47,319 nucleotides of DNA, taken from the sequence record NC_042046.1, one strand, 5' to 3'. Below are positions 1-40,074 of the stretch, one piece after another. How positions within the stretch are numbered: the stretch's first letter is position 1; each line of letters begins with the position of its first letter. Under the pieces are notes generated by a model. That model was not told the origin of the DNA. It did not search any database and saw only the letters and a program-made list of their open reading frames with translations. The position numbers were made by a program, and so were the translations under genes. The stretch comes from Escherichia phage C119.

Positions 1-190
1 GAAAAAAAAAAAAAGCCAGGATGAGATTCCTGCTGATTGGGTACGCTTTGATGCGCTACAGACGAATATCGTTGTTAATCATATCGCACTCGTATATAAA
101 GGTCGCGCAGGTATTGCTAAACTCAATCTGGACGCGGAACAGGAAAACCCGTATACTGATACCGTTCAATCAAATAAAGAGGATAAATTG

Positions 191-673
191 ATGATTAAGA
201 TTAAACTCGATGGCGAACAGGAGTTCGAAATCGCCCCGGAAGTTGCTAAGCATATCGAAGCTGTTAAGGCTGATGCGGAGCAGGCTAAAGCTAAAGCTGA
301 CACTCTGGAAGCTGAGCGCGACGCACTGAAAGCTAAAGTTGATGGCATCCCCGCTGAAATAGAAGCTGCTTTAGCCAAAGCTAAGACTGATGCTGACGAA
401 ATGGCTGCCCTGGTCGCAGTTGCCGCAGAAGCTGGCGTTAAATGTGATGGCCTGGATGCTAAAGCAATCAAAGTTGCTTACGTTAAAGAAGTGTCTGGTA
501 TTGAAGTTGCTGAGAAATCTGACGCATACATCGATGCAGCCTTTGATATCGCTAAAGATAGTGATAAAATGGCCGAAGCCCGCAAAGCAGTTGCTGCTGC
601 GGATAAATCTGACGCAGCCGACGCGCCTAAGAAATTAGACCCGCGCGCTCGCCTCGCTAAATTGAAAAAATAA
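191..673 (+). CDS. Head scaffolding-like protein (Ala/Lys/Glu-rich, predicted coiled coil)
   Basis: ATG 191 preceded by GAGG at 179-182; low-complexity A/K/E-rich product; sits between the head-morphogenesis genes and the capsid gene. The same frame is open upstream to the window start (position 2). Confidence 0.5.
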   Translation: MIKIKLDGEQEFEIAPEVAKHIEAVKADAEQAKAKADTLEAERDALKAKVDGIPAEIEAALAKAKTDADEMAALVAVAAEAGVKCDGLDAKAIKVAYVKEVSGIEVAEKSDAYIDAAFDIAKDSDKMAEARKAVAAADKSDAADAPKKLDPRARLAKLKK

Positions 674-684
674 GGAGTCTTAAT

Positions 685-1152
685 ATGGCAATTCGTCGTC
701 AAGCTACTGCTGGTATGGTTGCAGATACCTCTCTGTACAATATTGATGGTGCCTGTGTAACATCTTCGGCTCTCGTGCGCAATGTTGGCACTGCTGTTGG
801 AGTTGGTTCAGTTGTTGATGGTCACAAGGTGCTGGTAGCCCCGGCATCTGGTAACGTTTACGGCGTCCTGGTTAAGTCACACTATGAAAGCCCTCGCGGT
901 TCTTACGGTGGCGCTGTTGGCAATGTCGACAACTTCTCCGTGGCTAACGTAATGACTCACGGTCGAATCTGGATGGCAACTAGCCTTTCAGAAGCGCCTG
1001 CATTTGGTAGCGCCGTTACCGTTGATGCCAATGGGTTAGCAACAAGCGGTGATGCCTTAGGTACTAACTGGACATTCGCAGGTGGATTCCAGGCAGCTGA
1101 TGCCGCATCTGGAGAACCAGCGCTCGTTGAAGTCCAGGTCATTCAGAAGTAA
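685..1152 (+). CDS. Capsid-associated / head decoration-like protein (155 aa)
   Basis: ATG 685 with AAGGAG at 672-677; Gly/Val/Ala-rich small protein directly upstream of the capsid region; followed by a hairpin plus T-tract at 1170-1193. Confidence 0.45.
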   Translation: MAIRRQATAGMVADTSLYNIDGACVTSSALVRNVGTAVGVGSVVDGHKVLVAPASGNVYGVLVKSHYESPRGSYGGAVGNVDNFSVANVMTHGRIWMATSLSEAPAFGSAVTVDANGLATSGDALGTNWTFAGGFQAADAASGEPALVEVQVIQK

Positions 1153-1245
1153 TTATCACCTCCAAATCAAACCTCCTTCGGGAGGTTTTTTATTGCCTGT
1201 TTTCTGTTAGACTGTCAATGATCATTAACCAATCAGGAGATAGAA

Positions 1246-2691
1246 ATGGCTTACACAGAAATTGCTATGGCAGTAGGGAATTCACCTGAAATCTTAGCCA
1301 GGAACGTAAAAGTGATGATGTCATCAGGCTTTCAGCCATATGGTGATGTGCAGATGCTAAGCGGCACCCTCTTTGGCATGAAGATGGCGAAAGGAACAAC
1401 AAACAACGTTGAAGACTTCATGGTTACATCCGACACCACAATTCAGGGGCTAGTTAACATGGTTAACCGATATCTAGCGCAGGGCTGGAAAAGGTTTGGC
1501 AATGCTCACTTCGAGGATGGCGCTTATATTTCAGCTCTGGCTAAAGGTGATTTTGCAAGTGATGAAGGAGGGGGTTCAGGTGAAGCAGGTCCACAAGGTC
1601 CGGTTGGTCCGCAGGGTCCAGCAGGTCCCGCAGGCGAAGCTGGTCCGCAAGGCCCTCAAGGTCCAACTGGTGCAACTGGCCCAGCAGGTGCGGCAGGCGC
1701 CAAAGGTGACACTGGTCCGGCAGGCCCTGCAGGCCCGCAAGGTCCTCAAGGCGAGACTGGAGAAGCTGGTCCACAGGGTCCTATGGGCCCAACAGGTGCA
1801 ACAGGTCCGGCTGGCCCAAAAGGTGATAAAGGTGATGCAGGTCCAGTTGGTCCGGCAGGCTTGACATTCCGTGGGGTGTACGACGCAGCGACAGCTTACG
1901 TTAAAGATGATGTTGTTACATTCAATAACTCCAGCTGGTTTGCTACCACTGCTGTTACCGGAGAGAATCCAGATGTTAGCGATTCCTGGGAATTGCTGGC
2001 TGCACAAGGCGCCCCTGGCCCACAAGGAGCAACCGGTCCAGCAGGCCCGACTGGCCCAGCAGGCCCGGCTGGCATTCAAGGTCCTCAGGGAGAAAGAGGC
2101 CTTCAGGGTGAGCAGGGTCCGACAGGTCCGCAAGGCTTGCAAGGTGCAGCAGGTGCAGTCGGGCCTCAAGGCCCAGCAGGTCCTCAGGGTGAGCCAGGAA
2201 TACAGGGTCCTGTTGGCCATCAAGGTCCAATTGGCCCTAAAGGCGATAAGGGAGACCCGGGAATATCAAGAACCTTCATGAAAGTTAAAACATCGCCTGA
2301 TGTTGGCACTAATCATATGTTAAGACTACCAGCTCCTCTTAACAACCTATCTGTTGGTATAAGGCTTGATTCAACAGTGCTTTTTAGCATTAGAGCCTGG
2401 ATTGATGAGGGAAGCACTGCCAGGAACATAAGAGGTAATATTGAGGGCTTCAATAATACAGATAACTACTTCAATACAACAGTAAGGACAGCAATATCTT
2501 CATCTTCCGTAACTGGAACAGCATTGGTTACTGGCATTGGTGAATTTCAAAGAATAAGGCCATATGTTTTTAGCTTTTATGAAACCACAACAGGAACGGC
2601 GTGGAGAGTAACAATAAATCTATTTACAGTCGGTTATGTTGTGAGCGACAATCAAGACCTGTGTATAGAAGTTGTAAGGCTTGATGCATAA
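1246..2691 (+). CDS. Collagen-like triple-helix repeat protein (481 aa) with globular N- and C-terminal domains
   Basis: ATG 1246 with AGGAGA RBS; two long runs of Gly-X-Y repeats ([28 protein letters not shown]... and [31 protein letters not shown]...) separated by a non-collagen segment; C-terminal domain of about 140 aa. Confidence 0.8.
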
Positions 2692-2782
2692 AATCAATAG
2701 AGAAATGATTACTCTATTGTTCCAATTAAAATCTCGTGTATAATTGACACGTAAACTCATAAACAAAAGGATGCATCTTAAT

Positions 2783-3730
2783 ATGACTATCAAACTTGAC
2801 GCTTTCGAGCAAGAAAAGATCACTAACCACCTGCGAGCCATGGGCGTTGATAAGGCTGATGCAGCTGGTATCTGGACCGTGAAGCAGCTCACCGCAAGCC
2901 TGAATAAAGCTTACGAAACCGAGTACGACCAGAACTCCGTGGTAAACCTGTTCCCTGTAAGCAATGAAATTCCTGGCTACGCTAAGTACTTTGAGTATCC
3001 GGTATTTGATGGCGTTGGTATTGCTCAGATCGTGGCTGACTACACTGATGACCTGCCGCTGGTTGATGCTTTGGCAACTGAACGTCAGGGTAAAGTTTTC
3101 CGTTTCGGTAACGCGTTCCTGATTTCCATTGATGAAATTAAAGTTGGTCAGGCTACCGGTCAGTCTCTGTCTACTCGCAAGCAGTCTCTTGCTTTCGAAG
3201 CTCATGACAAGCTGCTTGATAAACTGGTGTGGTCCGGCTCTACTGCTCACGGCATCCCGAGTGTGTTCGACTACCCGAACATCAACAACGTTGTTAGCGG
3301 TGGTTCATGGTCTCAACCAACTACAGCAGTAAGCGATATTACAAGCCTGCTGGATATCATTGAGACTTCAACTAATGGTCAGCACCGTGCAACTCACCTG
3401 CTTCTGCCTACTACCGCCCGTCGTATTATGCAGAACCTGGTGCCTGGCACTTCTGTTAGCTACGGTGAGTTCTTCCGTCAGAACAATAGCGGCGTAACCG
3501 TTGAGTTCGTTCAGTACCTGAATGATTACAATGGCACTGGTACCTCTGCAGCTATCGCTTACGAGAAAGACCCTAACAACATGGCAATCGAGATTCCGGA
3601 AGCGACTAACGCACTGCCGGCTCAGCCGCGCGACTTGCACTTCCGTGTTCCGGTAACTTCTAAAGCAACCGGTTTGATCGTGTTTAGGCCTTTAACTATG
3701 GCTGTCATGAAGGGCATTACTTTTGCTTAA
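2783..3730 (+). CDS. Major capsid protein
   Basis: About 315 aa ORF in the canonical position after scaffold/decoration genes, followed by a strong hairpin plus T-tract terminator. Start is uncertain: in-frame candidates at 2744 (TTG), 2771 and 2783 (ATG); RBS AAAGGA at 2766-2770. Confidence 0.7.
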   Translation: MTIKLDAFEQEKITNHLRAMGVDKADAAGIWTVKQLTASLNKAYETEYDQNSVVNLFPVSNEIPGYAKYFEYPVFDGVGIAQIVADYTDDLPLVDALATERQGKVFRFGNAFLISIDEIKVGQATGQSLSTRKQSLAFEAHDKLLDKLVWSGSTAHGIPSVFDYPNINNVVSGGSWSQPTTAVSDITSLLDIIETSTNGQHRATHLLLPTTARRIMQNLVPGTSVSYGEFFRQNNSGVTVEFVQYLNDYNGTGTSAAIAYEKDPNNMAIEIPEATNALPAQPRDLHFRVPVTSKATGLIVFRPLTMAVMKGITFA

Positions 3731-3751
3731 TAGCACTTTTTGACAATGACA

Positions 3752-3778
3752 AGCACCCTTCGGGGTGCTATTTTTTTG
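3752..3778 (+). terminator. Rho-independent terminator after capsid gene
   Basis: agcacccttcggggtgct hairpin followed by T7 tract. Confidence 0.7.
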
Positions 3779-3800
3779 TCTAAAGAAAAGTGGAGGGGTT

Positions 3801-4331
3801 ATGATTAAGGTAAAAGACATAATTGATCTTATAAATGTTGATAGTGAAAGTGGGGTGATAACATGGAAGCTCAGGGATTCAGCGAGGCCTCAGTGGAATG
3901 CAAGGTTTGCCGGAAAGAGGGCAGGTAACGAGTTCCAGGTTAGAACTGGTGGAAAGTACAGAAGAATAAGGTTTACTGTTAACGGAGAGACGGCTACATT
4001 ATTGGAGCATAGGATGATCTGGGAATTTGTTAATGGTGAAATACCTGATGGGATGGAGATAGATCACATAGACAAAGACTCAACGAACAACTCAATATCA
4101 AACCTTAGGGTTTGCAACAGAGCTCAGAATAGCTCAAACAAGGATAGGCATGCTGACAATACATCTGGGTATAAAGGTGTATCATACTTTAAGCAAACCG
4201 ATAAGTTCAGGGCGAGAATAATGCATAATGGTAACGACATGCATATAGGTTACTTCGATACAGCTGAAGGCGCTCACCGGGCCTACATGTTAAAGCAGGC
4301 AGAGTTGTGCGGTGAGTTTGCTAGAGGGTAG
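3801..4331 (+). CDS. HNH homing endonuclease with AP2-like DNA-binding domain (copy 1)
   Basis: ATG 3801 after GGAGGGG RBS; motifs NGEIPDGMEIDHIDKD...NLRVCNRAQN (HNH) and SGYKGVSYFKQTDKFRARI (AP2-like); paralogous to ORFs at 21437 and 31791; free-standing between capsid and neck genes. Confidence 0.8.
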   Translation: MIKVKDIIDLINVDSESGVITWKLRDSARPQWNARFAGKRAGNEFQVRTGGKYRRIRFTVNGETATLLEHRMIWEFVNGEIPDGMEIDHIDKDSTNNSISNLRVCNRAQNSSNKDRHADNTSGYKGVSYFKQTDKFRARIMHNGNDMHIGYFDTAEGAHRAYMLKQAELCGEFARG

Positions 4332-4373
4332 CTATTGAGATATAATCAAACAATCGAAACAAAGGAGGAATAA

Positions 4374-4619
4374 ATGAAACTGTTACATAAAGGTGCTTGT
4401 GTTATCCGTCTTGGCGCAAAAGATTATCTTCCAGGCGACACTATCGAGGTTGAAGAGTTATCAGTTGGATTAAAGATTCTGGTAGCTGAAGGTAAGCTTG
4501 AGGTTGAGGATGACCACAAGGCAACTAAAGAAATCGAGCAGGAAGTTAAAGCCAAGGCTAAGCCCAAGAAGCAACCAAAGACTATTGATGAAGCTGAGAA
4601 TGGCGGCGACTACAAATAA
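4374..4619 (+). CDS. Hypothetical head/neck-region protein (81 aa)
   Basis: ATG with AAAGGAGG RBS; Lys/Glu-rich C-terminus; followed by a UUCG-tetraloop hairpin at 4626-4648. Confidence 0.6.
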   Translation: MKLLHKGACVIRLGAKDYLPGDTIEVEELSVGLKILVAEGKLEVEDDHKATKEIEQEVKAKAKPKKQPKTIDEAENGGDYK

Positions 4620-4663
4620 ACCAAAAGGGCGCTTCGGCGTCCTTTATTGTATGGAGATATCAC

Positions 4664-5065
4664 ATGAATGAAGAAGTAATTGCGTACATGCGCACGCTTT
4701 ACCCGCCTCTTAAGAGTCAGCCTGATGATGTTCTTAACGCATGGATTGAGGTAGCCAAGCTATTCATCTGCTTAGACAAGTTTGGTGACAAGCAGGTTCA
4801 GGCACTGGCATTCTACACTCTTCACTTGCTTAGCCAGGATATTGCACTTAAGACTGAGAATGATTCAAGCCAGACATCATCTGAGCGGGTTAAGTCCTAC
4901 TCACTTTCAGGCGAGTACACGATTAGCTACGATACAAGCACTGCCGCAGCTAGCTCATCAAACCTTGAGGAATCCTCATGGGGTAAGCTTTACATTGATT
5001 TGATGCGTCGCAAGGTTGGCCGCTGGGGCTTGATTACCTCTGGTGGGTCGAGGTGCTGCCGATGA
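4664..5065 (+). CDS. Head-tail connector / adaptor protein (133 aa)
   Basis: Position between capsid and tail genes; GGAGA RBS; stop overlaps the next start (ATGA). Confidence 0.5.
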   Translation: MNEEVIAYMRTLYPPLKSQPDDVLNAWIEVAKLFICLDKFGDKQVQALAFYTLHLLSQDIALKTENDSSQTSSERVKSYSLSGEYTISYDTSTAAASSSNLEESSWGKLYIDLMRRKVGRWGLITSGGSRCCR

Positions 5066-5430
5066 ATCATGCACTTTTGCAGCAGCAAATTAAGGCTGGT
5101 ATTAATCTCCTGTCAGATGGTGATGGAGTTTTCGAAGCTACGACACAGCCAGCCATCTCTATCGTTAATGGCTATGAAGTGCGCACACCAGGCACTTCCT
5201 ACACTGTGCGGGGTGTTATCCGTGAATTCAAAGCGAGAGACATTGATGGTGACATCATCAAATTCGGTGACCGTCGCGGAATTTTTACTGCTGATTCAGT
5301 TGTATCGGAAGGAGACCGCATCTACATTGACCAGGAAGCATACACAGTAATTGACCCTCGACCAGTGAAGCCAACTGGCACGGTAATCGCCTACAGGCCA
5401 GTATTGCGGAGGGCTGCAACTTATGGCTAA
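5062..5430 (+). CDS. Head closure / head-tail joining protein
   Basis: Translationally coupled (ATGA overlap at 5062-5065) in the neck gene run; alternative GTG start at 5053. Confidence 0.5.
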   Translation: MNHALLQQQIKAGINLLSDGDGVFEATTQPAISIVNGYEVRTPGTSYTVRGVIREFKARDIDGDIIKFGDRRGIFTADSVVSEGDRIYIDQEAYTVIDPRPVKPTGTVIAYRPVLRRAATYG

Positions 5431-5851
5431 TGACGTTGTTAGTTTCAGGAACTCAATTAACGCATGGATTGATGGAGTCACGGAGGGTGTAGAATTGATT
5501 GTGGAAGGCACATTAACCAAGGCTGCCAACGACATCGTTAAGCTATCTCCCGTTGATACTGGTCGATTTAGAGGTAACTGGCAGGCTACTGGCAACTCAC
5601 CAGCTGCGCAGTCACTGAATAATTACGACCCTGACGGAAATGAGACTCGAAACTCTCTTCGTAGGCAGATCTACGCACTCGCCAGTGATAACAATACGAA
5701 CGTAATTTACATTACCAACCGCCTTGATTATGCGCAAGGTCTTGAGTTTGGTTCATCCAATCAGGCACCTTCTGGTGTTCTTGGAGTTGTCCAAAAGAGG
5801 CTTGGCCGTTACTTTGCTGAGGCGGTACAGGAGGCTAAACGTGCACTATGA
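5423..5851 (+). CDS. Neck / tail completion protein (HK97 gp10-like by position)
   Basis: ATG 5423 after GGAGGG; 142 aa; coupled with flanking genes. Confidence 0.45.
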   Translation: MANDVVSFRNSINAWIDGVTEGVELIVEGTLTKAANDIVKLSPVDTGRFRGNWQATGNSPAAQSLNNYDPDGNETRNSLRRQIYALASDNNTNVIYITNRLDYAQGLEFGSSNQAPSGVLGVVQKRLGRYFAEAVQEAKRAL

Positions 5852-18356: not shown

Positions 18357-18424
18357 AAATCCTTATATAATAAGGGTTTAGAGTATTATTATTATTATAT
18401 ATATTACTATGTATATCTTGTAAC
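18357..18424. repeat. AT-rich element copy A with (TTA)n microsatellite
   Basis: aaatccttatataataagggtttagagtattattattattatatatattactatg...; near-identical to the element at 38617-38686; lies in a divergent intergenic region. Confidence 0.8.
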
Positions 18425-21436: not shown

Positions 21437-21931
21437 ATGAATTGGGACAAATACTTTGATATCGTGGATGGTAAGCTGGTGTGGAAGTATAGAGAAGAGA
21501 TGCGGCCACAGTGGAACGCAAGATATCAAGGAAAAGAGGCAGGAGCGATAAGGAATGGATACCTTCAGACCGAAATCAATGGGAAGTGTTATTTTTGCCA
21601 TAGAATTATGTGGGAAATGATTAACGGTCGTATACCGGATGGAATGTGCATAGACCACTTGAATCACAAGAGAGATGATAACAGGATTGAAAATCTTAGA
21701 GTTGTATCTCATCAAGATAATTGCAAGAATCAGAGCTTGCGATTGAAAAATAAATCAGGAGTATCGGGAGTTTACTGGAATAAGAAAGCAAATAAGTGGC
21801 TAGCTCAAATAAGTATAAAAGGAAAAAGAAAGCATGTTGGTTTCTTTTTATCAATATCTGACGCTGAGAATGCGATAAAACAAGCAAGAAAAGAAAATCT
21901 TTACCACGAAAATCATTGCTCTAATATTTGA
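21437..21931 (+). CDS. HNH homing endonuclease with AP2-like domain (copy 2)
   Basis: NGRIPDGMCIDHLNHKRDDNRIENLRVVSHQDNCKNQ (HNH) and SGVSGVYWNKKANKWLAQI (AP2-like); N-terminus MNWDKYFDIVDGKLVW parallels copy 3. Confidence 0.8.
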   Translation: MNWDKYFDIVDGKLVWKYREEMRPQWNARYQGKEAGAIRNGYLQTEINGKCYFCHRIMWEMINGRIPDGMCIDHLNHKRDDNRIENLRVVSHQDNCKNQSLRLKNKSGVSGVYWNKKANKWLAQISIKGKRKHVGFFLSISDAENAIKQARKENLYHENHCSNI

Positions 21932-31790: not shown

Positions 31791-32282
31791 ATGAATTGGA
31801 ATGATTTTCTCGAATATAGAGATGGAAAGCTTTACTGGACAGATCCACACTCAACAAAATTTAAGCCAGGGGATGAGGCTGGATGTAGGCATCATAGGGG
31901 TTATCATTATATAAGGAGATATAAAACCACGATGTCAAGGCATAGGATAGTATGGACAATGTTTAATGGAGAGATACCGGAAGGCATGGAGATTGATCAC
32001 ATAGACCATGACGTTGAGAATGATCGGATTGAAAACCTAAGAATGGTTACAAGGAGGCAGAACAATCAAAACAAAAAGCTAGATGAAAGAAATACTAGCG
32101 GACATGTTGGGGTTAGTTGGAACAAGAAGGCAAACAAATGGAGAGCAATGATAGGTATAAAGGGTAATGACGGGAAGCGGAAAACGGTATATGTTTATTA
32201 TGGTGACTCTTTCGACGACGCGGTATTGGCAAGGAAGAAAGCTGAATCTGAATACTCATTTCATGAAAATCACGGAAAATAG
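31791..32282 (+). CDS. HNH homing endonuclease with AP2-like domain (copy 3)
   Basis: NGEIPEGMEIDHIDHDVENDRIENLRMVTRRQNNQNK and SGHVGVSWNKKANKWRAMI; GAGGAGG RBS; stop TAG is the TAG of a cassette motif. Confidence 0.8.
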   Translation: MNWNDFLEYRDGKLYWTDPHSTKFKPGDEAGCRHHRGYHYIRRYKTTMSRHRIVWTMFNGEIPEGMEIDHIDHDVENDRIENLRMVTRRQNNQNKKLDERNTSGHVGVSWNKKANKWRAMIGIKGNDGKRKTVYVYYGDSFDDAVLARKKAESEYSFHENHGK

Positions 32283-33728: not shown

Positions 33729-34114
33729 TTCTGGTAATTGCATCACTGACTGGCTGCTCTGCTATGTCAGCCATTTCTGATTTCTTACCAGCAAAGGATG
33801 GCGTCGAGGCAACGGCGCAGGTTGGCGAGTCAAACCAGAAAACTGGCGTTGGATTATCCAGCCAGACAGACAAATCTAGCTCAACAGAGAGCGATATGCG
33901 CAACTCAACTAACAGAGATGTAGATTCATCAAGCCATAAAAAGACTGCTGCTACGGGTCTCTCAGCTAACACAATAACAGCTGAAAAGATTGAAATTCAT
34001 AGCACTGAAAACTCTGGGGTTGACTCTTTAGTCTGGGGTATTCTGGCTGGATTAGTTTCAGGTTTGCTAACTTACTTCGCTTTAAGATTCGCAGGAAACA
34101 AAAAAGGAGCCTAA
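33710..34114 (+). CDS. Unimolecular spanin (u-spanin-like)
   Basis: N-terminal lipoprotein signal MRLGIVVLVIASLTGCSA plus C-terminal TM helix LVWGILAGLVSGLLTYFAL in one polypeptide, the arrangement described for T1 gp11. Confidence 0.65.
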   Translation: MRLGIVVLVIASLTGCSAMSAISDFLPAKDGVEATAQVGESNQKTGVGLSSQTDKSSSTESDMRNSTNRDVDSSSHKKTAATGLSANTITAEKIEIHSTENSGVDSLVWGILAGLVSGLLTYFALRFAGNKKGA

Positions 34115-34130
34115 TGGCTCCTTTATTTTA
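34100..34130. terminator. Bidirectional terminator between convergent spanin (+) and minus-strand operon
   Basis: aggagcctaatggctcct hairpin flanked by A-tract and T-tract. Confidence 0.7.
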
Positions 34131-34463
34131 CGCGAACAGTTGGTCGTCTGTCATTTCTTTTATGGTCATCATCTCATTGGTGTACTTATCACTCTCACCT
34201 CCGAGGCACCTAAAGCTAAAACCGAATGGTCGCTTCGTGCTTCCTTTGCTCCAGTAACTGCCATTAACTCCATCGATGTAACCTTCAGTCATGCATCTTG
34301 CCAGAAACTCCTTTGACGCAGATGATGCAAAGTAACGCGCATTAACTCCAGCTGCCTTAGCCATTCTTTCACATTCTTTGTGGCGGTAAATGAATACCGC
34401 CAGGTGCTGCCTGTTAAACTTTTCGTAGCTCTCGCAGAACTTGAACACATCAAGGATGAACAT
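34128..34463 (-). CDS. Hypothetical protein (111 aa)
   Basis: Minus-strand ORF coupled downstream of the 529-aa gene. Confidence 0.5.
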   Translation of the reverse strand: MFILDVFKFCESYEKFNRQHLAVFIYRHKECERMAKAAGVNARYFASSASKEFLARCMTEGYIDGVNGSYWSKGSTKRPFGFSFRCLGGESDKYTNEMMTIKEMTDDQLFA

Positions 34464-34467
34464 TTAA

Positions 34468-36057
34468 TTACCCCAGCAGCCGTGGATTGATATATACCTT
34501 GTCACCAATCAGGCAGGTATAGTTTTTATCATCAAGCATCGGGAGTAAGTGGTCTTTAATTTTAGCCATAACACCAGCCTGTGACTCGAAAGGTCGAACC
34601 TTACGCGCAGCTTCATAAAGTGAGCGCAAACCCACAACTCCTTTACTGTTCTTGCCTTGCTTGATAAGGATATCAATTAACTTGTTCATCTCAGCGTTAT
34701 CGCCAGCATGACCAGCTGCGTTAGCAGAAGATAAGTAAGTCTTGCTAAGTTCTTCAAACATCAATAAAGCCTCCTGCATCGTTTCCAGTCCAATCTCCCT
34801 GGACTTCTGCGGACTACCGCCATTTGGATTAAACCAGTTACGTATGGTGTGAAGAACGGCAGCAAGGCGAATAACCTGCTTATCCATTTTACCTAGTGCG
34901 CCACGGAGCATTGTGTGTGAATACTTGCCGCCATCCGCAAGGTGTGGCTCCATTTCCTGTCGAGCACGGTTAAGGTGCTTCATTGCTGAGTTACTAATAG
35001 TCAACTTCACATCTTGCTCACTCATAATTTCATGAACAAGACGGAAGTAATCAGCCTTCAACGCTCCGTCAATCGGCTCATATGTTGACTCGCCATTATC
35101 ATCGACGAAAACACGCTCACCAAGGAATGACTTTTCACGCACAAGCAAGAAACGTTCGGATACACCAATACCGCGAGCACCAGCATTCATGATTGCGACT
35201 ATTGTTTCATCCTGCGCAATTACAGAAATACACCCCATAGCAATAAAGCTCATGTTGTTCTCTGCGTTCGCACGCGCGATAGATACGTTACCAGCATCCC
35301 AGGCCTTAAGTACCAGTTCGCTGTTTGTTTTCTTTGTTCCATCACCATAGGTCATGCCAAGCAGTGAGTTGACGCTCGTCGCCTCATCCGAGATGACAGC
35401 GAAGCTACCCTGACGATGGTTAATGCGTGCCAGACCTTCAGGAGTAGTATCAGATACAGGGAATACGATGTCGCAAAGTTTCTCGAGCTTATCTTCCAGC
35501 TCCTCCTTCTCCTCAAACAAACCAGCCATCTCAGAAGGCGACTTCTCCTGCTTCATTTCTTTAGCCAGAGCCGACAGCTTGGCCATAATCTTTTTACGGT
35601 CACGCTTACGCAGATCGTTTAGTCGCTCAGTCTCTGCAATCATTGGAGCCAGAGACAGCGAGTTAATGGCGGATTTACCAGTTGATGGAGGCTGGCTGGT
35701 CACTACATACAGTGATGTTGGTTGTTGAGTTCCGTGATACTCAACCGTAAAGCGACCTAACATAGCTGCCGAGATGCAACCAAGGAAGTGCATATAAGCA
35801 GATGATTCAGGAAACTGAACAGAACGAGCAATGTTGCTTGATAGTTTGCCAACTACATCATAGTCGTTACCAAGCGAGATAACAGGATACTTGTCGCCAG
35901 TAGAATCAATCTCAACCGGAGCTTTCCAGAATGATGCGCTCTGGCGATAACCGTTCGCATTAATAGCAACACGTAAAGGAGGTAATCCATCCTGAGCGGC
36001 AACAGCCATTACTTGTTCAACAGTCAATTTGTCATCATTAAAATCAAACATTATCAT
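34468..36057 (-). CDS. Putative P-loop NTPase of unknown function (529 aa); full-length paralog of the ORF at 39457-40017
   Basis: Walker A-like VVTSQPPSTGKSA; N-terminus (MIMFDFNDDKLTVEQVMAVAAQDGLPPLRVAINANGYRQS) and C-terminus (VVGLRSLYEAARKVRPF...CLIGDKVYINP) are shared with the 186-aa ORF. Confidence 0.6.
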   Translation of the reverse strand: MIMFDFNDDKLTVEQVMAVAAQDGLPPLRVAINANGYRQSASFWKAPVEIDSTGDKYPVISLGNDYDVVGKLSSNIARSVQFPESSAYMHFLGCISAAMLGRFTVEYHGTQQPTSLYVVTSQPPSTGKSAINSLSLAPMIAETERLNDLRKRDRKKIMAKLSALAKEMKQEKSPSEMAGLFEEKEELEDKLEKLCDIVFPVSDTTPEGLARINHRQGSFAVISDEATSVNSLLGMTYGDGTKKTNSELVLKAWDAGNVSIARANAENNMSFIAMGCISVIAQDETIVAIMNAGARGIGVSERFLLVREKSFLGERVFVDDNGESTYEPIDGALKADYFRLVHEIMSEQDVKLTISNSAMKHLNRARQEMEPHLADGGKYSHTMLRGALGKMDKQVIRLAAVLHTIRNWFNPNGGSPQKSREIGLETMQEALLMFEELSKTYLSSANAAGHAGDNAEMNKLIDILIKQGKNSKGVVGLRSLYEAARKVRPFESQAGVMAKIKDHLLPMLDDKNYTCLIGDKVYINPRLLG

Positions 36058-36091
36058 CTCTCTCTAAATGCCCCCGAAGGGGCTTGATTAT

Positions 36092-36271
36092 TTACTTGAT
36101 ACGAACTTCAATCATCTGACCTTTATGAGGAAGATACAGCTTTGCGCGACCTCTAATCATTACGGTGATGATATTCTCCTTAAGGTCAACGTGAAGTACT
36201 TTGCGGAACAGTGGCCCCATTTTTACCATCATGCCAGGTTTGATGTTTTCGATAGTAGTCATGATATCCAT
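36092..36271 (-). CDS. Hypothetical protein (59 aa)
   Basis: Minus-strand ATG 36271 downstream of cassette copy (motif 36337-36355, leader 36290-36320); just below the ORF-track size cutoff. Confidence 0.5.
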   Translation of the reverse strand: MDIMTTIENIKPGMMVKMGPLFRKVLHVDLKENIITVMIRGRAKLYLPHKGQMIEVRIK

Positions 36272-36353
36272 TTTTTAGCCCTTTTAATGTATTTCGTTTC
36301 GATGAAGAGAATATATCAATTTTTGTTGTTAAGGTCTTTAGCAAAAAGTGCCA

Positions 36354-36470
36354 TTAAAGACCAACCAGACATTTGCCAACTACAACAGCGATTGCGCCCA
36401 TGAAGCCAAAGAAACCAAACTTAATTACTTGTTCCATTACCGCATCAACTGCTTTAGAGATGTTTTTCAT
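36354..36470 (-). CDS. Small membrane protein (38 aa)
   Basis: ATG 36470 with AAGGTG RBS; hydrophobic helix FGFFGFMGAIAVVVGKCLVGL; the longer ORF-track version would span a cassette motif. Confidence 0.45.
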   Translation of the reverse strand: MKNISKAVDAVMEQVIKFGFFGFMGAIAVVVGKCLVGL

Positions 36471-36555
36471 TTTGTTCACCTTAGTGTTTGTCTTCTTGAT
36501 GGAAACAAATATACCCGCCGAAGCGGGTAGTGTCATTAGCAAAAAGTGCTATTAA

Positions 36556-36750
36556 TTAAAACCTTTCGCCAGATGATAGCTTATTACTAGGCATTTTATC
36601 TATGAAAGTTTCAAGCAACCATTTTCTAGTAATGAAATCAACCACGCAAAAATAGCCTCTATCTTTGCAGTATCTGTACTTAGTGCCGTGTTGTATAGAC
36701 TTGCAATAAATTGAATCTTTTGTTATGTAAATTCTTACTGTCTCATTCAT
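36556..36750 (-). CDS. Hypothetical protein (64 aa, Cys-containing)
   Basis: ORF-track ORF in the minus-strand small-gene array. Confidence 0.5.
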   Translation of the reverse strand: MNETVRIYITKDSIYCKSIQHGTKYRYCKDRGYFCVVDFITRKWLLETFIDKMPSNKLSSGERF

Positions 36751-37100
36751 TTGTATTGGCTCTCGAATTTATAAGTTCCGCAAACAGTTGTAAATCCAAC
36801 ATCTTCAGAGCGAATCAGCGTCCATGAGTCACCATCTTCATCAAATATTTTACCAGCGTTCTGTCCAAGAGATGCGGTCATTTCTACCTGATAGCGACGA
36901 CCTTGCTTGAATGACTTTGATACTCCTGATTTATGGTTAACAAATGTGACATAAAGAGTCTTAGTCTTGATGTAACGCCCCCGCTCAGTGAGATTTTGCC
37001 ATTTACCATGAATCTTGATTTGCTCAATACCATCTTTAACGCGAGCTTTAAACAGATTGTTATCTGAGCTGATCCAGTTTTTAGTGATAGTGGTAGCCAT
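36747..37100 (-). CDS. Hypothetical protein (117 aa)
   Basis: ORF-track ORF, coupled to the downstream gene. Confidence 0.55.
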   Translation of the reverse strand: MATTITKNWISSDNNLFKARVKDGIEQIKIHGKWQNLTERGRYIKTKTLYVTFVNHKSGVSKSFKQGRRYQVEMTASLGQNAGKIFDEDGDSWTLIRSEDVGFTTVCGTYKFESQYK

Positions 37101-37125
37101 TACTATTTTCCTTTTTGGTTTGTTA

Positions 37126-37428
37126 TTAGTTAGCGTTATGACGTTCGATATAGTCGCGGATTGTTTCGCCTACGCTTTTAGCGGCACCAAAAGTGCCCTT
37201 TGCGTGGCGTGAATCGCGGTACGTCTGGAAGAATTTACGAGCGATGTTTGCGAACATTGAACCAGTCACGCGAGCATCACCGAAATTTGTTTCGATAGCG
37301 TTGCTAATGCCATCCTTGAACTCATTTTCAGTCATGAACATCTCTGCCATGCCAGCAGTCTCGAAAAGGTTAGCTAATTCATTCATGTTGTTATGGTCTT
37401 CGGCTGTAAACAGGTTCATGTTAATCAT
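37126..37428 (-). CDS. Hypothetical protein (100 aa)
   Basis: Preceded on the minus strand by cassette leader attcatctcatcgaaacgaaactaa. Confidence 0.55.
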   Translation of the reverse strand: MINMNLFTAEDHNNMNELANLFETAGMAEMFMTENEFKDGISNAIETNFGDARVTGSMFANIARKFFQTYRDSRHAKGTFGAAKSVGETIRDYIERHNAN

Positions 37429-37502
37429 CTTCGTGATTCTTTAGTTTCGTTTCGATGAGATGAATATACAATAAAAGCCCCGAAGGGCTTTAGCAATTCG
37501 TG

Positions 37503-37655
37503 CTATTTCTTTGCTGCTTTTGCAATTGCCTTCTGGACGATGTTGAAGCTCTCAATCAAATCTTCTTTGAAGTAGTCACCAACAGGCCAACCCTTACCGC
37601 TGTACTTGGCTATGGTTTCTAGATCGTAATAGTTCAAGTCAGATGGCTTTAGCAT
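37503..37655 (-). CDS. Hypothetical protein (50 aa)
   Basis: ATG 37655 adjacent to the upstream stop (TAA-ATG); stop TAG is the TAG of a minus-strand cassette motif (37489-37507). Confidence 0.4.
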   Translation of the reverse strand: MLKPSDLNYYDLETIAKYSGKGWPVGDYFKEDLIESFNIVQKAIAKAAKK

Positions 37656-37895
37656 TTACTTAACCTCATCAAAAGTTGCAATACCAGGAATAAACACTCC
37701 AACCTTCCAGCCTGTAATGGCAATCCATCCAGAATCGTGCTTGTGTGGTCGCTCAGCGCCATTAATAACCCATTCGTTCGGGATTGCCTTGCCGTTAATG
37801 ATTAGACGCTCAGCGTCGTATAAAGAGCCTTTTACGAATGGTGTTAGTATTTTCTTGTCGGTACTTGTAATGCAATTGGTGCAGCGAATTTTCAT
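37656..37895 (-). CDS. Hypothetical protein (79 aa)
   Basis: ORF-track ORF with GAGG RBS. Confidence 0.55.
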   Translation of the reverse strand: MKIRCTNCITSTDKKILTPFVKGSLYDAERLIINGKAIPNEWVINGAERPHKHDSGWIAITGWKVGVFIPGIATFDEVK

Positions 37896-37905
37896 ATCTC
37901 AATCC

Positions 37906-38085
37906 TCAAATAAATGGTAAACATTCGACGCAGCCAAGTCCATCGCAGCACAGAAATTCATCTTCTGACTGGAATTGCTTAGCCAAATCAATGTCCAGCT
38001 TTCCGCGCAGCACAAGGTTGGTGTAAACTTCGTTAAGTCCAATCAGTGCGCATTCGTGGCGCAACTCGTCTTTATCAATCTTCAT
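37906..38085 (-). CDS. Hypothetical Cys-rich small protein (59 aa)
   Basis: Minus ATG 38085; C-terminal CCDGLGCVECLPFI; overlaps neighbours. Confidence 0.4.
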   Translation of the reverse strand: MKIDKDELRHECALIGLNEVYTNLVLRGKLDIDLAKQFQSEDEFLCCDGLGCVECLPFI

Positions 38086-38269
38086 AACGCTCTACCTCGA
38101 AGTTGTATACCATTACGTTTCTATCATGCTTGTTCTTTATCACCATTGACTCAAGCTCTTCGTATACAGCCACTACATTGTAAACACCACCAGGCTCAAG
38201 GCCGTAGAATTCGTACTCTTCATCGTCAAAACCATCCGTTTTACTTAGTGCTGTTATTTTTACCTTCAT
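38075..38269 (-). CDS. Hypothetical acidic protein (64 aa)
   Basis: First gene after minus-strand cassette copy (motif 38325-38345, leader 38270-38292). Confidence 0.55.
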   Translation of the reverse strand: MKVKITALSKTDGFDDEEYEFYGLEPGGVYNVVAVYEELESMVIKNKHDRNVMVYNFEVERYED

Positions 38270-38616
38270 ATCTATCTCCTCGTTGTTGATGAGTTTACTA
38301 TAGCCTTGCCATCCCCATTTGTCTTTAGCAAAAAGTGCTATTCGTCAGATTTATGGATTGTTGCAGGCATTGCGATGATTAGCATGACTATTACACATAA
38401 AGCAATATTTCATCGATTGCAATGATTTTCTGGACTGTTGCGAATTTATCAATGATTGATGGATTGATGGAATGAAGTGAGGGTTGTATCAACTAGTTGG
38501 TTGGTTTTAGCTTTCACAAGGAGCTTTCCTTTATGTACGCGTTATGGCTTGTTCAACCGTGTAGAGAAATTGCCATATTTACGCCATCCACGCCAGTTTA
38601 CGCGCTGGTTACAAAA

Positions 38617-38686
38617 TAAATCCCTTATATAACAACCATTTAGATTTATTATTATTATTATTATTATATATGTTATTCCGTAACCA
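38617..38686. repeat. AT-rich element copy B with (TTA)7 microsatellite
   Basis: aaatcccttatataacaaccatttagatttattattattattattatatatgttattccgtaacc; direct repeat of the element at 18357-18424. Confidence 0.8.
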
Positions 38687-38941
38687 TGATTATCTGAGAT
38701 ATTGGTGATATTTTTTGATATTGCGCGGCGCATAAAGATTTAGATAAAGAGATAGGGATGCAAGCGGGGTGGCGAAAATGGCTTAACATACCATAACGGC
38801 AATAACAGCCTTGATACGACTAGCGTCAGCATGTAACAATTTAGCATAACGTGCGATTACCGAGTTGAACGTGTAAATAACGCTTGCGACATTCACCAAT
38901 CATGGTAAGATGCTCTCACACCAAACGAGAGGAGTAGTAAA

Positions 38942-39457
38942 ATGAGTAATACAATTCGTGAAGCAAACCCGACACTTGGCGACCTGGTGCGGCACCTTGT
39001 TAAGATGGCTCTTAATTCAGAGGATGGAAGCGTAACAGTTCCCGTTAAGTTGCTTTACAAGAATCTTTACGGAGAAATTGATAACGACTATGTAGCAGCT
39101 GACTTTAGACCTGGCGGCAAATATTCACTTCCAAAGCTTAAGGCTTCCTATGTTTCAAATACAGCCAGCAGAATGCAGGAAGTTAAAGACGCAGATAAGC
39201 GCGCAAGGTTCTCTTGTGGAGAGATGGAGTATAATGGTGATGAGCATTATTGCGTAAAAATCACAATGGTCAACGGTGCTGTTAAGAATGGAACCCGAGC
39301 TAAGACAAACAGTCAATTAGAGGAGAAAGCGGTAAGCGAGTTTAAAGCTAGGCTACTTAAGCTTTCCCCCAGCGTAGCAGGAATGAGTGGAGATGAACTG
39401 AAGGGTGCGGTAGCTATGATTAACGCATATCAGGAAATGATTAAGGAGACTAAATAA
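38942..39457 (+). CDS. Hypothetical protein (171 aa)
   Basis: ATG 38942 with GAGGAG RBS; first gene of the rightward operon after the 650-bp noncoding region. Confidence 0.6.
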   Translation: MSNTIREANPTLGDLVRHLVKMALNSEDGSVTVPVKLLYKNLYGEIDNDYVAADFRPGGKYSLPKLKASYVSNTASRMQEVKDADKRARFSCGEMEYNGDEHYCVKITMVNGAVKNGTRAKTNSQLEEKAVSEFKARLLKLSPSVAGMSGDELKGAVAMINAYQEMIKETK

Positions 39458-40017
39458 TGTTTGATTTCAACGAGGATAAGTTAACTGATGACCAGGTGAT
39501 GGAAGTCGCCAGGCAAGATAACCTGCCGCCACTTCGTGTGGCAATCAGTACTAATGGATACCGCCAATCATTCAATTTCTGGCCCAGCGCCGAAGAGATG
39601 CTGTGCGTCAAGTTGAGCTACAAATACGGTGTCGTAGTTAGCAGGATTAGCCGCCATGGCTGGAATGGAGTGGTTGGCATTCGATCTCTATACGAGGCAA
39701 TACGAAATGTCCAGCCATTCGTCGGGCGCGAAGGGATTATGCATGACCTGACAAATAACATCATCCCAGAACTACAAGAGGCGGGAATTGTTTGCCTCAT
39801 TGGCGATAAGATTTATGTTCATCCGGCCCTGGTTGAGATGGATAAGGACGACGTGCAAAACTGGTGCAGTCAGTGCCGATCCGACGTGCCACGCTCAAAC
39901 TACGTGCCACCGCAAACAACAATCCATGGCTATAATGCCGATGAGGTGGAGAAGGCCATACAGTTCTACCGGAAAGCGAAAGCTCTCCCGAATGGTGAAT
40001 ATAGCACAAATTGCTAA
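39457..40017 (+). CDS. Truncated paralog (186 aa) of the 529-aa NTPase-like protein, lacking the central P-loop core
   Basis: N-terminus MFDFNEDKLTDDQVMEVARQDNLPPLRVAISTNGYRQS and C-terminal block VVGIRSLYEAIRNVQPF...CLIGDKIYVHP align to the ends of the 34468-36057 product; AAGGAG RBS; stop inside a cassette motif. Confidence 0.65.
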   Translation: MFDFNEDKLTDDQVMEVARQDNLPPLRVAISTNGYRQSFNFWPSAEEMLCVKLSYKYGVVVSRISRHGWNGVVGIRSLYEAIRNVQPFVGREGIMHDLTNNIIPELQEAGIVCLIGDKIYVHPALVEMDKDDVQNWCSQCRSDVPRSNYVPPQTTIHGYNADEVEKAIQFYRKAKALPNGEYSTNC

Positions 40018-40074
40018 ACAATAAATTGGGTAGTCAGCTATGATTACCCTATCAACAACAAAGAGGAAATAACC

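What the first reader, a model, noticed from the sequence alone, without database searches (positions are those of the whole stretch)
36092..38269. Leftward array of nine small genes of unknown function, several with cassette promoters
Between the 529-aa gene and the noncoding region B lies a run of minus-strand ORFs of 38-117 aa, mostly translationally coupled. Three were below the ORF-track size cutoff and were found by hand (36092-36271, 37503-37655, 37906-38085). Products include a 38-aa single-pass membrane peptide, a Cys-rich 59-aa protein (CCDGLGCVECLPFI) and acidic proteins. Being the first genes transcribed from a divergent junction, they are plausible host-takeover or anti-defence factors, but no product has a recognisable motif.
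Basis: inference. Interest (0 to 1): 0.5.

Follow-up and report, generated by a model that had tools for sequence, protein, structure and literature searches.

The report
Accessory small-gene array, T1-like phage
This is the real but ordinary block of nine small genes of unknown function that T1-like coliphages carry between a divergent control region and a helicase-like gene. The genes are already annotated as hypothetical. The block mixes one family-wide gene with swappable promoter-plus-gene modules, and a gene in the equivalent block of a related phage is a known trigger of a bacterial immune protein.

Summary
The window is essentially the whole genome of Escherichia phage phiKP26 (Rogunavirus, Drexlerviridae; 99.9% identity). 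All nine minus-strand ORFs are at the stated coordinates. Eight are phiKP26 gp69-gp76 and the ninth is annotated in relatives. All are supported as genes, p7 and p8 least.

The "cassette promoters" are four copies of the published T1-family 21-nt repeat aaATAGCACnnnTTGnTAAAA. Here each lies 17-18 nt upstream of a -10-like hexamer, and two are followed by a conserved leader. They split the array into four units: p1-p4, p5-p7, p8 and p9.

The array is heterogeneous. p6 occurs in about 90% of helicase-carrying relatives. p2, p3, p4 and p9 occur in 11-19%. p1, p5, p7 and p8 occur in 3% or less. Mosaic breakpoints fall at cassettes and start codons.

The anti-defence or host-takeover reading is plausible for the rare modules but undemonstrated, and doubtful for p6. 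Ordinary; low-to-moderate interest.

The parts
38075..38269 (-). p1, 64 aa, acidic (pI 4.4), first gene after the junction. Predicted SH3/KOW-like small beta-barrel. Rare: 10 phage records.
37906..38085 (-). p2, 59 aa, acidic, with a C-terminal CC-x4-C-x2-C-x-PF cluster. Overlaps the end of p1 by 11 nt. Found in 97 records. Probably related to Bas11 gp50 (C-x-C-x6-C-x2-C-x-PF).
   Evidence: (phrog_9053)
37656..37895 (-). p3, 79 aa, basic, 71-91% conserved in 42 database clusters. Found in 140 records.
   Evidence: (phrog_4448)
37503..37655 (-). p4, 50 aa. Its start abuts the p3 stop (TAAATG). Its TAG stop lies inside the next ATAGCAC repeat. Found in 131 records.
   Evidence: (phrog_4548)
37445..37506 (-). 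Terminator-plus-promoter cassette P2: 21-nt repeat 37486-37506, hairpin 37474-37491 (-10.2 kcal/mol), -10 TATATT 37463-37468, conserved leader TCATCGAAACGAAA 37445-37458.
37126..37428 (-). p5, 100 aa, a near-orphan (26 phage records; two other 50%-identity clusters among 1.84 billion representatives). A single-gene insertion between the P2 leader and the p6 ribosome-binding site.
   Evidence: phrog_12926; absent from JK06 and Bas01 with breakpoints 37114 | 37437-37445
36747..37100 (-). p6, 117 aa, basic, predicted all-beta. Best solved-structure match is the six-stranded barrel of Gp54-Bas11. Near-universal in the family: 822 of 918 helicase-carrying records.
36556..36750 (-). p7, 64 aa, coupled to p6 by an ATGA overlap. 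Rare (7 records). Swapped together with the last ~15 codons of p6 for a different 69-aa gene in Rogue1, AHS24 and UDF157lw, and absent from e4/1c.
36508..36552 (-). Cassette P3: repeat 36532-36552, hairpin 36512-36529 (-12.5 kcal/mol) between a -35-like ATGACA and the -10 TATATT at 36508-36513.
36354..36470 (-). p8, 38-aa peptide with a hydrophobic C-terminal half. The 62-aa TTG-started version begins upstream of the predicted transcription start, so it is unlikely. Found in 19 records, all identical.
   Evidence: YqzM 0.016, below cut-off; phrog_11986
36292..36354 (-). Cassette P4: repeat 36334-36354, -10 TATATT 36310-36315, leader TCATCGAAACGAAA 36292-36305.
36092..36271 (-). p9, 59 aa, basic (pI 10.2). 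Found in 175 records, including Klebsiella phages at 46% identity, where in KLPN1 it lies among rightward small genes at the record start rather than next to a helicase.
   Evidence: (phrog_8121)
38297..38341 (-). Cassette P1, the leftward junction promoter: repeat 38321-38341, -35-like AAGACA, 17 nt, -10 TATAGT 38297-38302.
36070..36083 (-). GC hairpin between p9 and the helicase-like gene (-11.1 kcal/mol), with no U-tract on the minus strand. A weak or partial terminator.
34468..36057 (-). 529-aa DUF3987 helicase-like gene, the conserved downstream anchor of the array.
   Evidence: (918 records)
34128..34463 (-). 111-aa 'YdbL'-labelled gene, the last gene of the leftward block. A terminator hairpin follows at about 34103-34124.
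   Evidence: (phrog_2794)
38884..38911 (+). Rightward junction promoter TTGCGA-16 nt-TGgTAAGAT (extended -10) ahead of the 171-aa DUF7174 gene. Read by eye.

Best explanation
The region is the leftward accessory-gene array of a Rogunavirus, essentially phiKP26.

Shown:
- It holds nine real small genes in four units: p1-p4, p5-p7, p8 and p9.
- Each unit is headed by the Drexlerviridae promoter cassette. This is the 21-nt repeat ATAGCACnnnTTGnTAAA(A/G)nn, then 17-18 nt, then a TATAGT/TATATT -10.
- Two cassettes enclose a terminator hairpin that closes the preceding unit.
- The array runs into the conserved DUF3987 helicase-like gene.

Inferred from the Bas11 experiments: host RNA polymerase reads these cassettes without phage factors, so the genes come on as soon as the DNA enters.

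Inferred from size, lack of catalytic motifs and predicted folds: the products are not enzymes. They are small stand-alone binding modules that act stoichiometrically on host or phage proteins. They include SH3-like and Gp54-like beta-barrels, a C-terminal Cys knuckle and a membrane peptide.

The array has two layers.
- p6 is a family-wide anchor gene. It probably works with the helicase-like gene or in a universal early step.
- p2-p3-p4 form a subfamily-level conserved trio.
- p1, p5, p7 and p8, and the wandering p9, are moron-like modules. They are gained, lost and swapped by recombination at the conserved cassette and leader sequences. They are the likeliest host-interface or counter-defence genes.
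For: - Identity and annotation.
- Coding evidence.
- Cassette anatomy: a -10-like hexamer sits at offset 38-39 in 14 of 16 window copies and 15 of 20 Bas11 copies. Copies point the same way as the downstream gene and lie 67-85 nt before its start.
- The repeat is published for TLS and noted there for T1, Rtp and Rogue1 (PMC11447400).
- Promoter function in Bas11: mutations just upstream of gene 54 lower expression, and the native promoter is active on pBR322 in uninfected cells (PMC11578894). The cassette occupies that position.
- Hairpins and coupling.
- Synteny of junction, small genes, p6-like gene, helicase and YdbL-like gene in Bas11, Bas01, 2725-N35, BECP10 and Klebsiella phage Alina.
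- Two layers: prevalence is 822, 175, 140, 131, 97, 26, 19, 10 and 7 of 918 records.
- Breakpoints at cassettes and start codons.
- Folds.
- Host-interface precedent: Gp54-Bas11 binds CapRel-SJ46 directly and is dispensable. Deletions that remove gene 54 and its neighbours are viable.
- Methyltransferases sit inside the array in Bas11, Alina and others.
Against: - There are no transcription, proteomic or knockout data for this phage or any Rogunavirus.
- The cassette also heads genes all round the genome, so it does not by itself define an early class.
- The plasmid result in Bas11 does not exclude read-through.
- The -35 is weak, and the role of the conserved upstream half of the repeat is unknown.
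- I could not see which p6 residues aligned. Assigning the match to residues ~45-117 is inference from the strand pattern and from the 44-116 matches in Klebsiella phages.
- Gp54's own benefit to its phage is unknown.
- Strong conservation of p2, p3, p4 and p6 argues against an arms-race role for them.
- SH3-like folds are too generic to indicate a target.
Confidence: 0.6

Rival explanations
1. The array is a replication-accessory operon. The small proteins, especially p6 and p9, are loaders, specificity factors or regulators of the DUF3987 helicase-like protein. They would act at an origin in the adjacent AT-rich noncoding region, not on host defences.
For: - p6 co-occurs with the helicase in about 90% of records. 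It lies directly upstream of it in Bas01, 2725-N35 and Klebsiella phage Alina, and one gene away in Bas11.
- All genes are co-oriented with the helicase and separated from it only by a weak hairpin.
- p9 and p6 are basic (pI 10.2 and 9.6).
- The junction region has an AT-rich (TTA)n tract and short repeats.
Against: - Bas11 deletions covering gene 54 and neighbouring array genes are viable.
- Most array genes are absent from most helicase-carrying phages.
- The p9 homologue in KLPN1 is in a different gene block, at the record start and not next to the helicase.
- There are no nucleic-acid-binding or loader motifs.
Confidence: 0.2
2. Some of the ORFs are not genes. p7 and p8 would be chance ORFs, or the real gene over p8/p9 would be the 111-aa plus-strand ORF 36068-36403 that JK06 and UDF157lw annotate.
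For: - p7 has no PHROG family and only one informative substitution among close relatives.
- p8 is identical in all 19 records, so it carries no substitution signal.
- The plus-strand ORF is annotated as JK_51 and UDF157lw_00065. Rogue1_0067 is a shorter plus-strand ORF in the same stretch.
Against: - p7 is 69% identical at protein level in BECP10. It keeps the ATGA coupling to a p6 paralogue there.
- p8 has a Shine-Dalgarno AAGG at 8 nt, its own cassette and a PHROG family.
- p9 is conserved to 46% in Klebsiella phages, and its substitutions are all synonymous in its own frame.
- The plus-strand ORF would run antisense through two promoter cassettes.
Confidence: 0.07
3. The p6-plus-partner pair (p6-p7 here, p6-like plus a 69-aa gene in Rogue1, gp48-gp47 in Bas11) is a two-component module. 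One protein would control the other, for example an inhibitor with its specificity or neutralising partner. This pair would be the functional core of the array.
For: - The ATGA or overlapping coupling is conserved in three lineages.
- The last ~15 codons of p6 are exchanged together with the partner gene (breakpoints 36553 | 36792).
- BECP10 carries both allelic pairs in tandem, plus a third gene with only the C-terminal part of p6.
Against: - Bas01, 2725-N35 and Alina have p6-like genes with no partner between them and the helicase.
- The partners are not detectably homologous to each other.
- There is no toxicity or interaction data.
Confidence: 0.1

Closest known systems
phiKP26 gp69-gp76 and their Rogunavirus orthologues (Rogue1_0068-0074, AHS24 gp58-gp66, BECP10_00001-00014)
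   Same: The same genes at 77-100% protein identity, in the same order and orientation, annotated 'hypothetical protein'.
   Different: - p7 is unannotated in phiKP26.
- Annotators disagree on the p8 start and on a plus-strand ORF over p8/p9.
- Relatives lack p5 (JK06) or swap p1+p2 and p7 for other genes. BECP10 has 14 genes with three p6 paralogues.
Bas11 (JohannLBurckhardt) leftward array gp55-gp47, including Gp54, the CapRel-SJ46 trigger (PDB 9AXB, Pfam PF25180; PMC11578894)
   Same: - Same locus: junction, cassette-headed small genes, p6 homologue (gp48, 42% identity), DUF3987 helicase (69%) and YdbL-like gene (54%).
- The same promoter cassette lies directly upstream of gene 54.
- p2 resembles gp50 in layout and Cys motif.
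   Different: - No window protein is a sequence homologue of Gp54.
- p6 is 117 aa whereas Gp54 is a single 66-aa barrel.
- Bas11 carries a Dcm-like methyltransferase in the array; the window does not.
- CapRel activation was not tested for any window protein.
The 21-nt intergenic repeat aaATAGCACnnnTTGnTAAAA of phage TLS, also noted for T1, Rtp and Rogue1 (PMC11447400)
   Same: Same consensus, intergenic position, co-orientation with transcription and distance of about 76 nt to start codons. Both the A/T/G spacer classes appear here (TTT and GAA in the array).
   Different: - That paper left the function open: stoperator, enhancer site or UP element.
- Here the repeat is seen as the upstream part of a longer unit. 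The unit has a -10 hexamer at a fixed 17-18 nt and often a conserved leader, CATCGAAACGAAA.
- In two array copies a terminator hairpin fills the spacer.
Morons and early accessory clusters of other phages (lambdoid morons, T7 class I genes such as ocr, T5 pre-early genes, the SPO1 host-takeover module)
   Same: Small, mostly dispensable genes placed to be expressed first by host RNA polymerase. Single genes are flanked by their own promoter and terminator and vary in presence between close relatives.
   Different: - There is no sequence or fold relation to Ocr, ArdA or other characterised members.
- This is a virulent siphovirus, not a prophage.
- The promoter is a family-specific cassette that also serves non-accessory genes.
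- One member (p6) is near-core.

Membership tests
Drexlerviridae 21-nt repeat / promoter cassette | Match to aaATAGCACnnnTTGnTAAAA | tested here: met
   Four array copies with 0-1 mismatch (38341, 37506, 36552, 36354 on the minus strand). Six matches to an 18-mer core against 0.07 expected by chance.
Drexlerviridae 21-nt repeat / promoter cassette | Intergenic, co-oriented with the downstream gene, about 76 nt before its start codon | tested here: met
   Start codons lie 72-83 nt from the start of the repeat. All four copies point leftward, like the genes.
Drexlerviridae 21-nt repeat / promoter cassette | Acts as a promoter for host RNA polymerase | not testable with these tools
   Indirect only. 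A -10 hexamer lies at fixed spacing in 29 of 36 copies. Bas11 gene 54 upstream mutations lower expression, and the native promoter is active on a plasmid.
Gp54 phage antiviral trigger (Pfam PF25180) | Sequence match to the family model | tested here: not met
   Bas11 Gp54 scores 6e-34. None of the nine window proteins hits it at E up to 1. hhalign and hmmsearch of the p6 family against Gp54 give nothing. tblastn of Gp54 on the window gives nothing.
Gp54 phage antiviral trigger (Pfam PF25180) | Six-stranded small beta-barrel with a long beta1-beta2 loop | tested here: inconclusive
Gp54 phage antiviral trigger (Pfam PF25180) | Binds and activates CapRel-SJ46 | not testable with these tools
   Even close Gp54 homologues from SECphi27, Bas5, Bas8 and Bas10 do not activate it.
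Moron (autonomous promoter-gene-terminator insertion) | Own promoter, and a boundary or terminator separating it from its neighbours | tested here: met
   p8 and p9 each have their own cassette. p5 sits directly behind terminator-plus-cassette P2. A hairpin lies upstream of p8 and downstream of p9.
Moron (autonomous promoter-gene-terminator insertion) | Present or absent between otherwise collinear close relatives | tested here: met
   p5 is precisely missing from JK06 and Bas01. p7 and p1+p2 are replaced in relatives. Prevalence is 7-26 of 918 records for p1, p5, p7 and p8. This is not met for p6, p3, p4 and p2.
Known anti-defence proteins (DNA mimics such as Ocr or ArdA, anti-CRISPR and others) | Sequence or fold similarity to a characterised member | tested here: not met
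   No hits in Pfam, NCBIfam or PDB sequences. p1 is acidic but folds as an SH3-like barrel. No dedicated anti-defence HMM library was available.
Labels used in the UDF157lw record: DUF2693 (p6), 'chemotaxis protein' (p5), Fer2_BFD (p2), 'putative Gp2' (p3) | Match to the named Pfam family | tested here: not met
   No Pfam hit at E up to 1 for any of them. The p2 Cys spacing CC-x4-C-x2-C is not, as I recall it, the BFD pattern C-x-C-x30-35-C-x2-C. 'Gp2' is only the gene number in phiEB49.

The most novel reading that the evidence does not exclude
The p6 family and the Gp54-type triggers may be sequence-diverged members of one Drexlerviridae-specific superfamily of small beta-barrel host-protein binders.

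- The p6 family is near-universal in Drexlerviridae and is expanded to three paralogues in BECP10.
- On this reading the array would be the phage's 'immune interface'. Its barrels would inhibit host defences or housekeeping targets, and would in turn be what sensors such as CapRel have evolved to detect.
- The conserved promoter cassettes would act as recombination joints that shuffle these modules between phages.
Probability: 0.15. Interest if true: 0.6.

Novelty: already known. Interest (0 to 1): 0.27.

Why it matters
As it stands, little changes. The genes are already in GenBank as hypothetical proteins, and the promoter-associated repeat is published.

The useful outcomes are practical.
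- They give a corrected gene and transcription-unit map: the p8 start, p7 as a real gene, a likely spurious antisense ORF, and four over-reaching labels in one relative's record.
- They split the array into a family-wide anchor (p6), a conserved trio (p2-p4) and truly accessory modules (p1, p5, p7, p8, p9). This tells an experimenter which genes to test on defence panels and which to test for a core role.
- They provide a fold-level lead tying p6 to the only characterised protein of this locus, the CapRel trigger Gp54.

About half of the genes of T1-like phages are small ORFs of unknown function, as a recent paper on the family notes. Even a modest triage has some value.

Tried and rejected
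- **Profile libraries.** I ran Pfam, NCBIfam and PADLOC on all nine products plus the YdbL-like gene. The only hit was a sub-threshold YqzM match for p8. PHROGs gave only 'unknown function' families.
- **PDB sequence searches.** I searched with p1, p2, p4, p5, p7 and p9 and with the p3 and p6 profiles. There were no credible hits.
- **p5 against 1.84 billion representatives.** Only two real relatives appeared. The other five hits are very long or multi-stretch matches: to a eukaryote-type zinc-finger protein, and to proteins with scattered zero-stretch Pfam matches. I read these as compositional artefacts.
- **A CxxC...HxH zinc site in p3.** Rejected, because Cys8 is Val in most homologues.
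- **p1 as a Gp54 homologue** (same length, Ala7). Rejected by sequence and by fold search.
- **Sequence homology between the p6 family and Gp54.** hhalign and hmmsearch were both negative.
- **Structured RNA in the region.** No Rfam hits at E up to 1.
- **TAGCA-N5-TGCTA in the repeat as a symmetric operator.** Weakened, because about 40% of copies read TTGTTA, which breaks the symmetry.
- **TTGCTA as the -35.** It sits 22 nt from the -10, which is too far. The hexamer at the proper distance is only AAGACA/AAAACA-like.
- **Literature.** I found no transcriptomics of T1-like phages, no functional data for these genes and no T1-like phages in one accessory-gene screen.
Full report
**What the window is.** A 3.5-kb stretch around the finding is 99.9% identical to Escherichia phage phiKP26. 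This is a virulent T1-like siphovirus (Rogunavirus, Rogunavirinae, Drexlerviridae). The stretch is 92-98% identical to AHP24, AHS24, AKS96, Rogue1 and JK06. At 47.3 kb, the window is essentially the whole phage genome.

**The observation.**
- Eight are phiKP26 gp69-gp76, all 'hypothetical protein'.
- The ninth, p7 (36556-36750), is not annotated in phiKP26. Annotated features lie under its matches in phiJLA23 and JK06, and BECP10_00011 is 69% identical to it.

**Are they genes?**
- Eight of nine belong to PHROG families, at E 1e-26 to 1e-68. All those families are of unknown function.
- Against orthologues from eight relatives, substitutions concentrate at the third codon position: p1 22/15/44, p3 44/16/91, p6 66/66/138.
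- The few changes in p4, p5, p8 and p9 are almost all synonymous.
- tblastn over 50,697 phage records finds p9 at 46% identity in Klebsiella phages. It finds p4 at 60-80% in about 100 records, p2 at 70-93% in 97 records, and p7 at 69% in BECP10.
- Seven ORFs have a Shine-Dalgarno match at 6-8 nt. p7 starts in an ATGA overlap with the p6 stop. p5 has only a weak GAAG.
- p7 and p8 are the least supported, but I accept all nine.
- The 62-aa version of p8 begins upstream of the transcription start implied by its own cassette, and inside a terminator hairpin. The 38-aa form is therefore preferred.

**Transcription layout.**
- A core motif, GCACTTTTTGCTAAAGAC, occurs six times in the window against 0.07 expected by chance.
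- A looser search finds 16 good copies on both strands. Each points towards a downstream gene.
- This is the 21-nt repeat aaATAGCACnnnTTGnTAAAA reported for phage TLS. That paper found 18 intergenic copies about 76 nt before start codons, and mentioned the repeat for T1, Rtp and Rogue1. It left the function open (PMC11447400).
- A -10-like hexamer (TATAGT, TATATT, TATAAT or TATTAT) lies 17-18 nt after the repeat in 14 of 16 window copies and 15 of 20 Bas11 copies.
- A conserved leader, CATCGAAACGAAA, often follows.
- The hexamer at the proper -35 distance is only AAGACA/AAAACA-like. The better TTGCTA inside the repeat is 22 nt from the -10, which is too far.
- The cassette is therefore a -10-driven promoter with a conserved upstream element spanning about -50 to -30.

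**Cassettes inside the array.** There are four copies, starting at 38341, 37506, 36552 and 36354.
- Two enclose GC hairpins (-10.2 and -12.5 kcal/mol) that close the preceding unit.
- The units are p1-p2-p3-p4, p5-p6-p7, p8 and p9.
- A weak hairpin follows. Then come the DUF3987 helicase-like gene and a 111-aa gene, ending at a strong terminator.

**Evidence that such cassettes are promoters.** This comes from Bas11.
- The 75-nt gap before Bas11 gene 54 is filled by a cassette.
- Published CapRel escape mutants carried mutations immediately upstream of gene 54. These lowered Gp54 levels.
- The native promoter also expressed Gp54-FLAG from pBR322 in uninfected cells (PMC11578894).
- That supports host RNA polymerase acting alone, and so early expression. 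It remains an inference for this phage.
- The cassette also heads many genes outside the array.
- The junction is divergent. A separate TTGCGA-16-TGgTAAGAT promoter at 38884-38911 faces right.

**Distribution.** The table gives tblastn record counts.

| Gene | Phage records |
|---|---|
| helicase-like gene | 918 |
| p6 | 822 |
| p9 | 175 |
| p3 | 140 |
| p4 | 131 |
| p2 | 97 |
| p5 | 26 |
| p8 | 19 |
| p1 | 10 |
| p7 | 7 |

- In the 5.8-billion-protein collection, the p6, p3 and p1 families are nearly all on phage-sized or shorter contigs and carry no Pfam domain.
- p5 has two other 50%-identity clusters among 1.84 billion representatives. Its remaining hits look like compositional artefacts.

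**Synteny.** The order junction, small genes, p6-like gene, helicase, YdbL-like gene holds in Bas01, 2725-N35, Bas11 and the Klebsiella phage Alina.
- DNA methyltransferases are embedded in the arrays of Bas11 and Alina.
- BECP10 has 14 array genes with seven good cassette copies and three p6-family genes.

**Mosaic breakpoints** fall on cassettes and start codons.
- p5 is exactly absent from JK06 and Bas01, with breakpoints at 37114 | 37437-37445. The second lies inside the conserved leader.
- p7 plus the last ~15 codons of p6 are swapped at 36553 | 36792.
- p1+p2 are replaced between the p3 start codon and cassette P1.
- The p9 homologue in KLPN1 lies among rightward small genes at the record start, not next to the helicase.

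**Function.**
- No sequence method gives a function.
- The labels in the UDF157lw record (DUF2693, chemotaxis protein, Fer2_BFD, 'Gp2') are not reproduced.
- The AlphaFold model of p6 (42-sequence alignment, pLDDT 81) is all-beta with eleven strands.
- The strand pattern 47-54, long loop, 69-74, 81-86, 92-98, 102-105, 110-113 fits that description. tblastn matches in Klebsiella phages cover only residues 44-116. I therefore place the match in the C-terminal half of p6. This is inference.
- Sequence-level homology between p6 and Gp54 is undetectable.
- Gp54 is encoded by the second gene of the syntenic Bas11 array. It is non-essential and of unknown benefit. It binds the CapRel-SJ46 antitoxin domain directly.
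- The p1 model (pLDDT 82) is a generic SH3/KOW-like barrel.
- p2 keeps four C-terminal Cys. It aligns in layout with Bas11 gp50.
- p8 is a short hydrophobic peptide.

**Interpretation.** The array is an ordinary feature of the family. It is a cassette-punctuated block of small, probably early, non-enzymatic proteins.
- It has two layers: a conserved layer (p6, then p2-p4) and moron-like modules (p1, p5, p7, p8 and the wandering p9).
- The moron-like modules are the reasonable candidates for host-interface or counter-defence roles.
- Its linkage to the helicase makes a replication-associated or universal early role at least as likely for p6.
- Nothing here is categorically new. The genes are annotated and the repeat is published.
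- The incremental points are the transcription-unit map, the core-versus-accessory split, the cassette-bounded mosaicism and the p6-Gp54 fold lead.

Noticed in passing
window 39457-40017 (+): The 186-aa gene just right of the junction looks like a paralogue of the 529-aa helicase-like gene with the central DUF3987 part missing. Residues 1-48 are 69% identical to the helicase N-terminus, and residues 71-126 are about 48% identical to its C-terminus. The pairing is conserved in AHS24, e4/1c, JK06 and Bas01.
   Followed up: partly
window 36068-36403 (+): A 111-aa plus-strand ORF overlapping p9, cassette P4 and p8 is annotated as a gene in JK06 (JK_51) and UDF157lw (00065), and a shorter plus-strand ORF (Rogue1_0067) lies in the same stretch of Rogue1. 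It runs antisense through conserved genes and a promoter cassette, so it is probably spurious.
   Followed up: partly
window 37503-37506; Bas11 (L009) about 40056-40060: The ATAG at the start of the 21-nt repeat doubles as the stop codon of the upstream gene. The p4 TAG lies inside ATAGCAC, and in Bas11 the gp55 stop abuts the repeat. Coding sequence and promoter cassette are packed with no spare bases.
   Followed up: no
window 38342-38883: The roughly 540-bp noncoding core of the junction holds several features. There is a (TTA)n/AT-rich tract at 38641-38682, GATTGATGG-type short repeats at 38348-38363 and 38454-38469, and a degenerate leftward copy of the 21-nt repeat at 38857 with no -10 at the usual distance. 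A similar AT tract at 18384-18413 lies beside another leftward cassette (18258). This could be an origin or packaging region; I did not test that.
   Followed up: partly
window 38884-38911 (+): The rightward junction promoter is a conventional TTGCGA-16 nt-TGgTAAGAT (extended -10) and lacks the 21-nt repeat. The two arms of the junction therefore use different promoter types. Bas11 likewise has TTGTGG-17-CATAAT with an upstream A-tract before gp56.
   Followed up: partly
window 4007-4079, 21598-21670, 31940-32012: Three paralogous stretches, 66-78% identical at DNA level, lie inside three separate genes. The motif they encode looks like that of HNH homing endonucleases; I did not test this.
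   Followed up: no
window 1246-2691 (+): A 481-aa gene carries long collagen-like GGTCCn (Gly-X-Y) repeats at 1576-2237. It is probably a fibre or decoration protein.
   Followed up: no
L003 (UDF157lw) 4259-5597: That record labels the p6, p5, p2 and p3 orthologues 'DUF2693 domain-containing', 'chemotaxis protein', 'Fer2_BFD domain-containing' and 'putative Gp2'. None is reproduced by Pfam at E up to 1. 'Gp2' is only a gene number in phiEB49, not T7 Gp2.
   Followed up: yes
L010 (BECP10) 1-3920: BECP10 carries an expanded array of 14 genes with seven good cassette copies. It has three p6-family genes: BE06, BE10 and an 83-aa gene (BE14) that matches only the C-terminal part of p6. It also has both alternative partner genes, the 69-aa type and the p7 type, in tandem.
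   Followed up: partly
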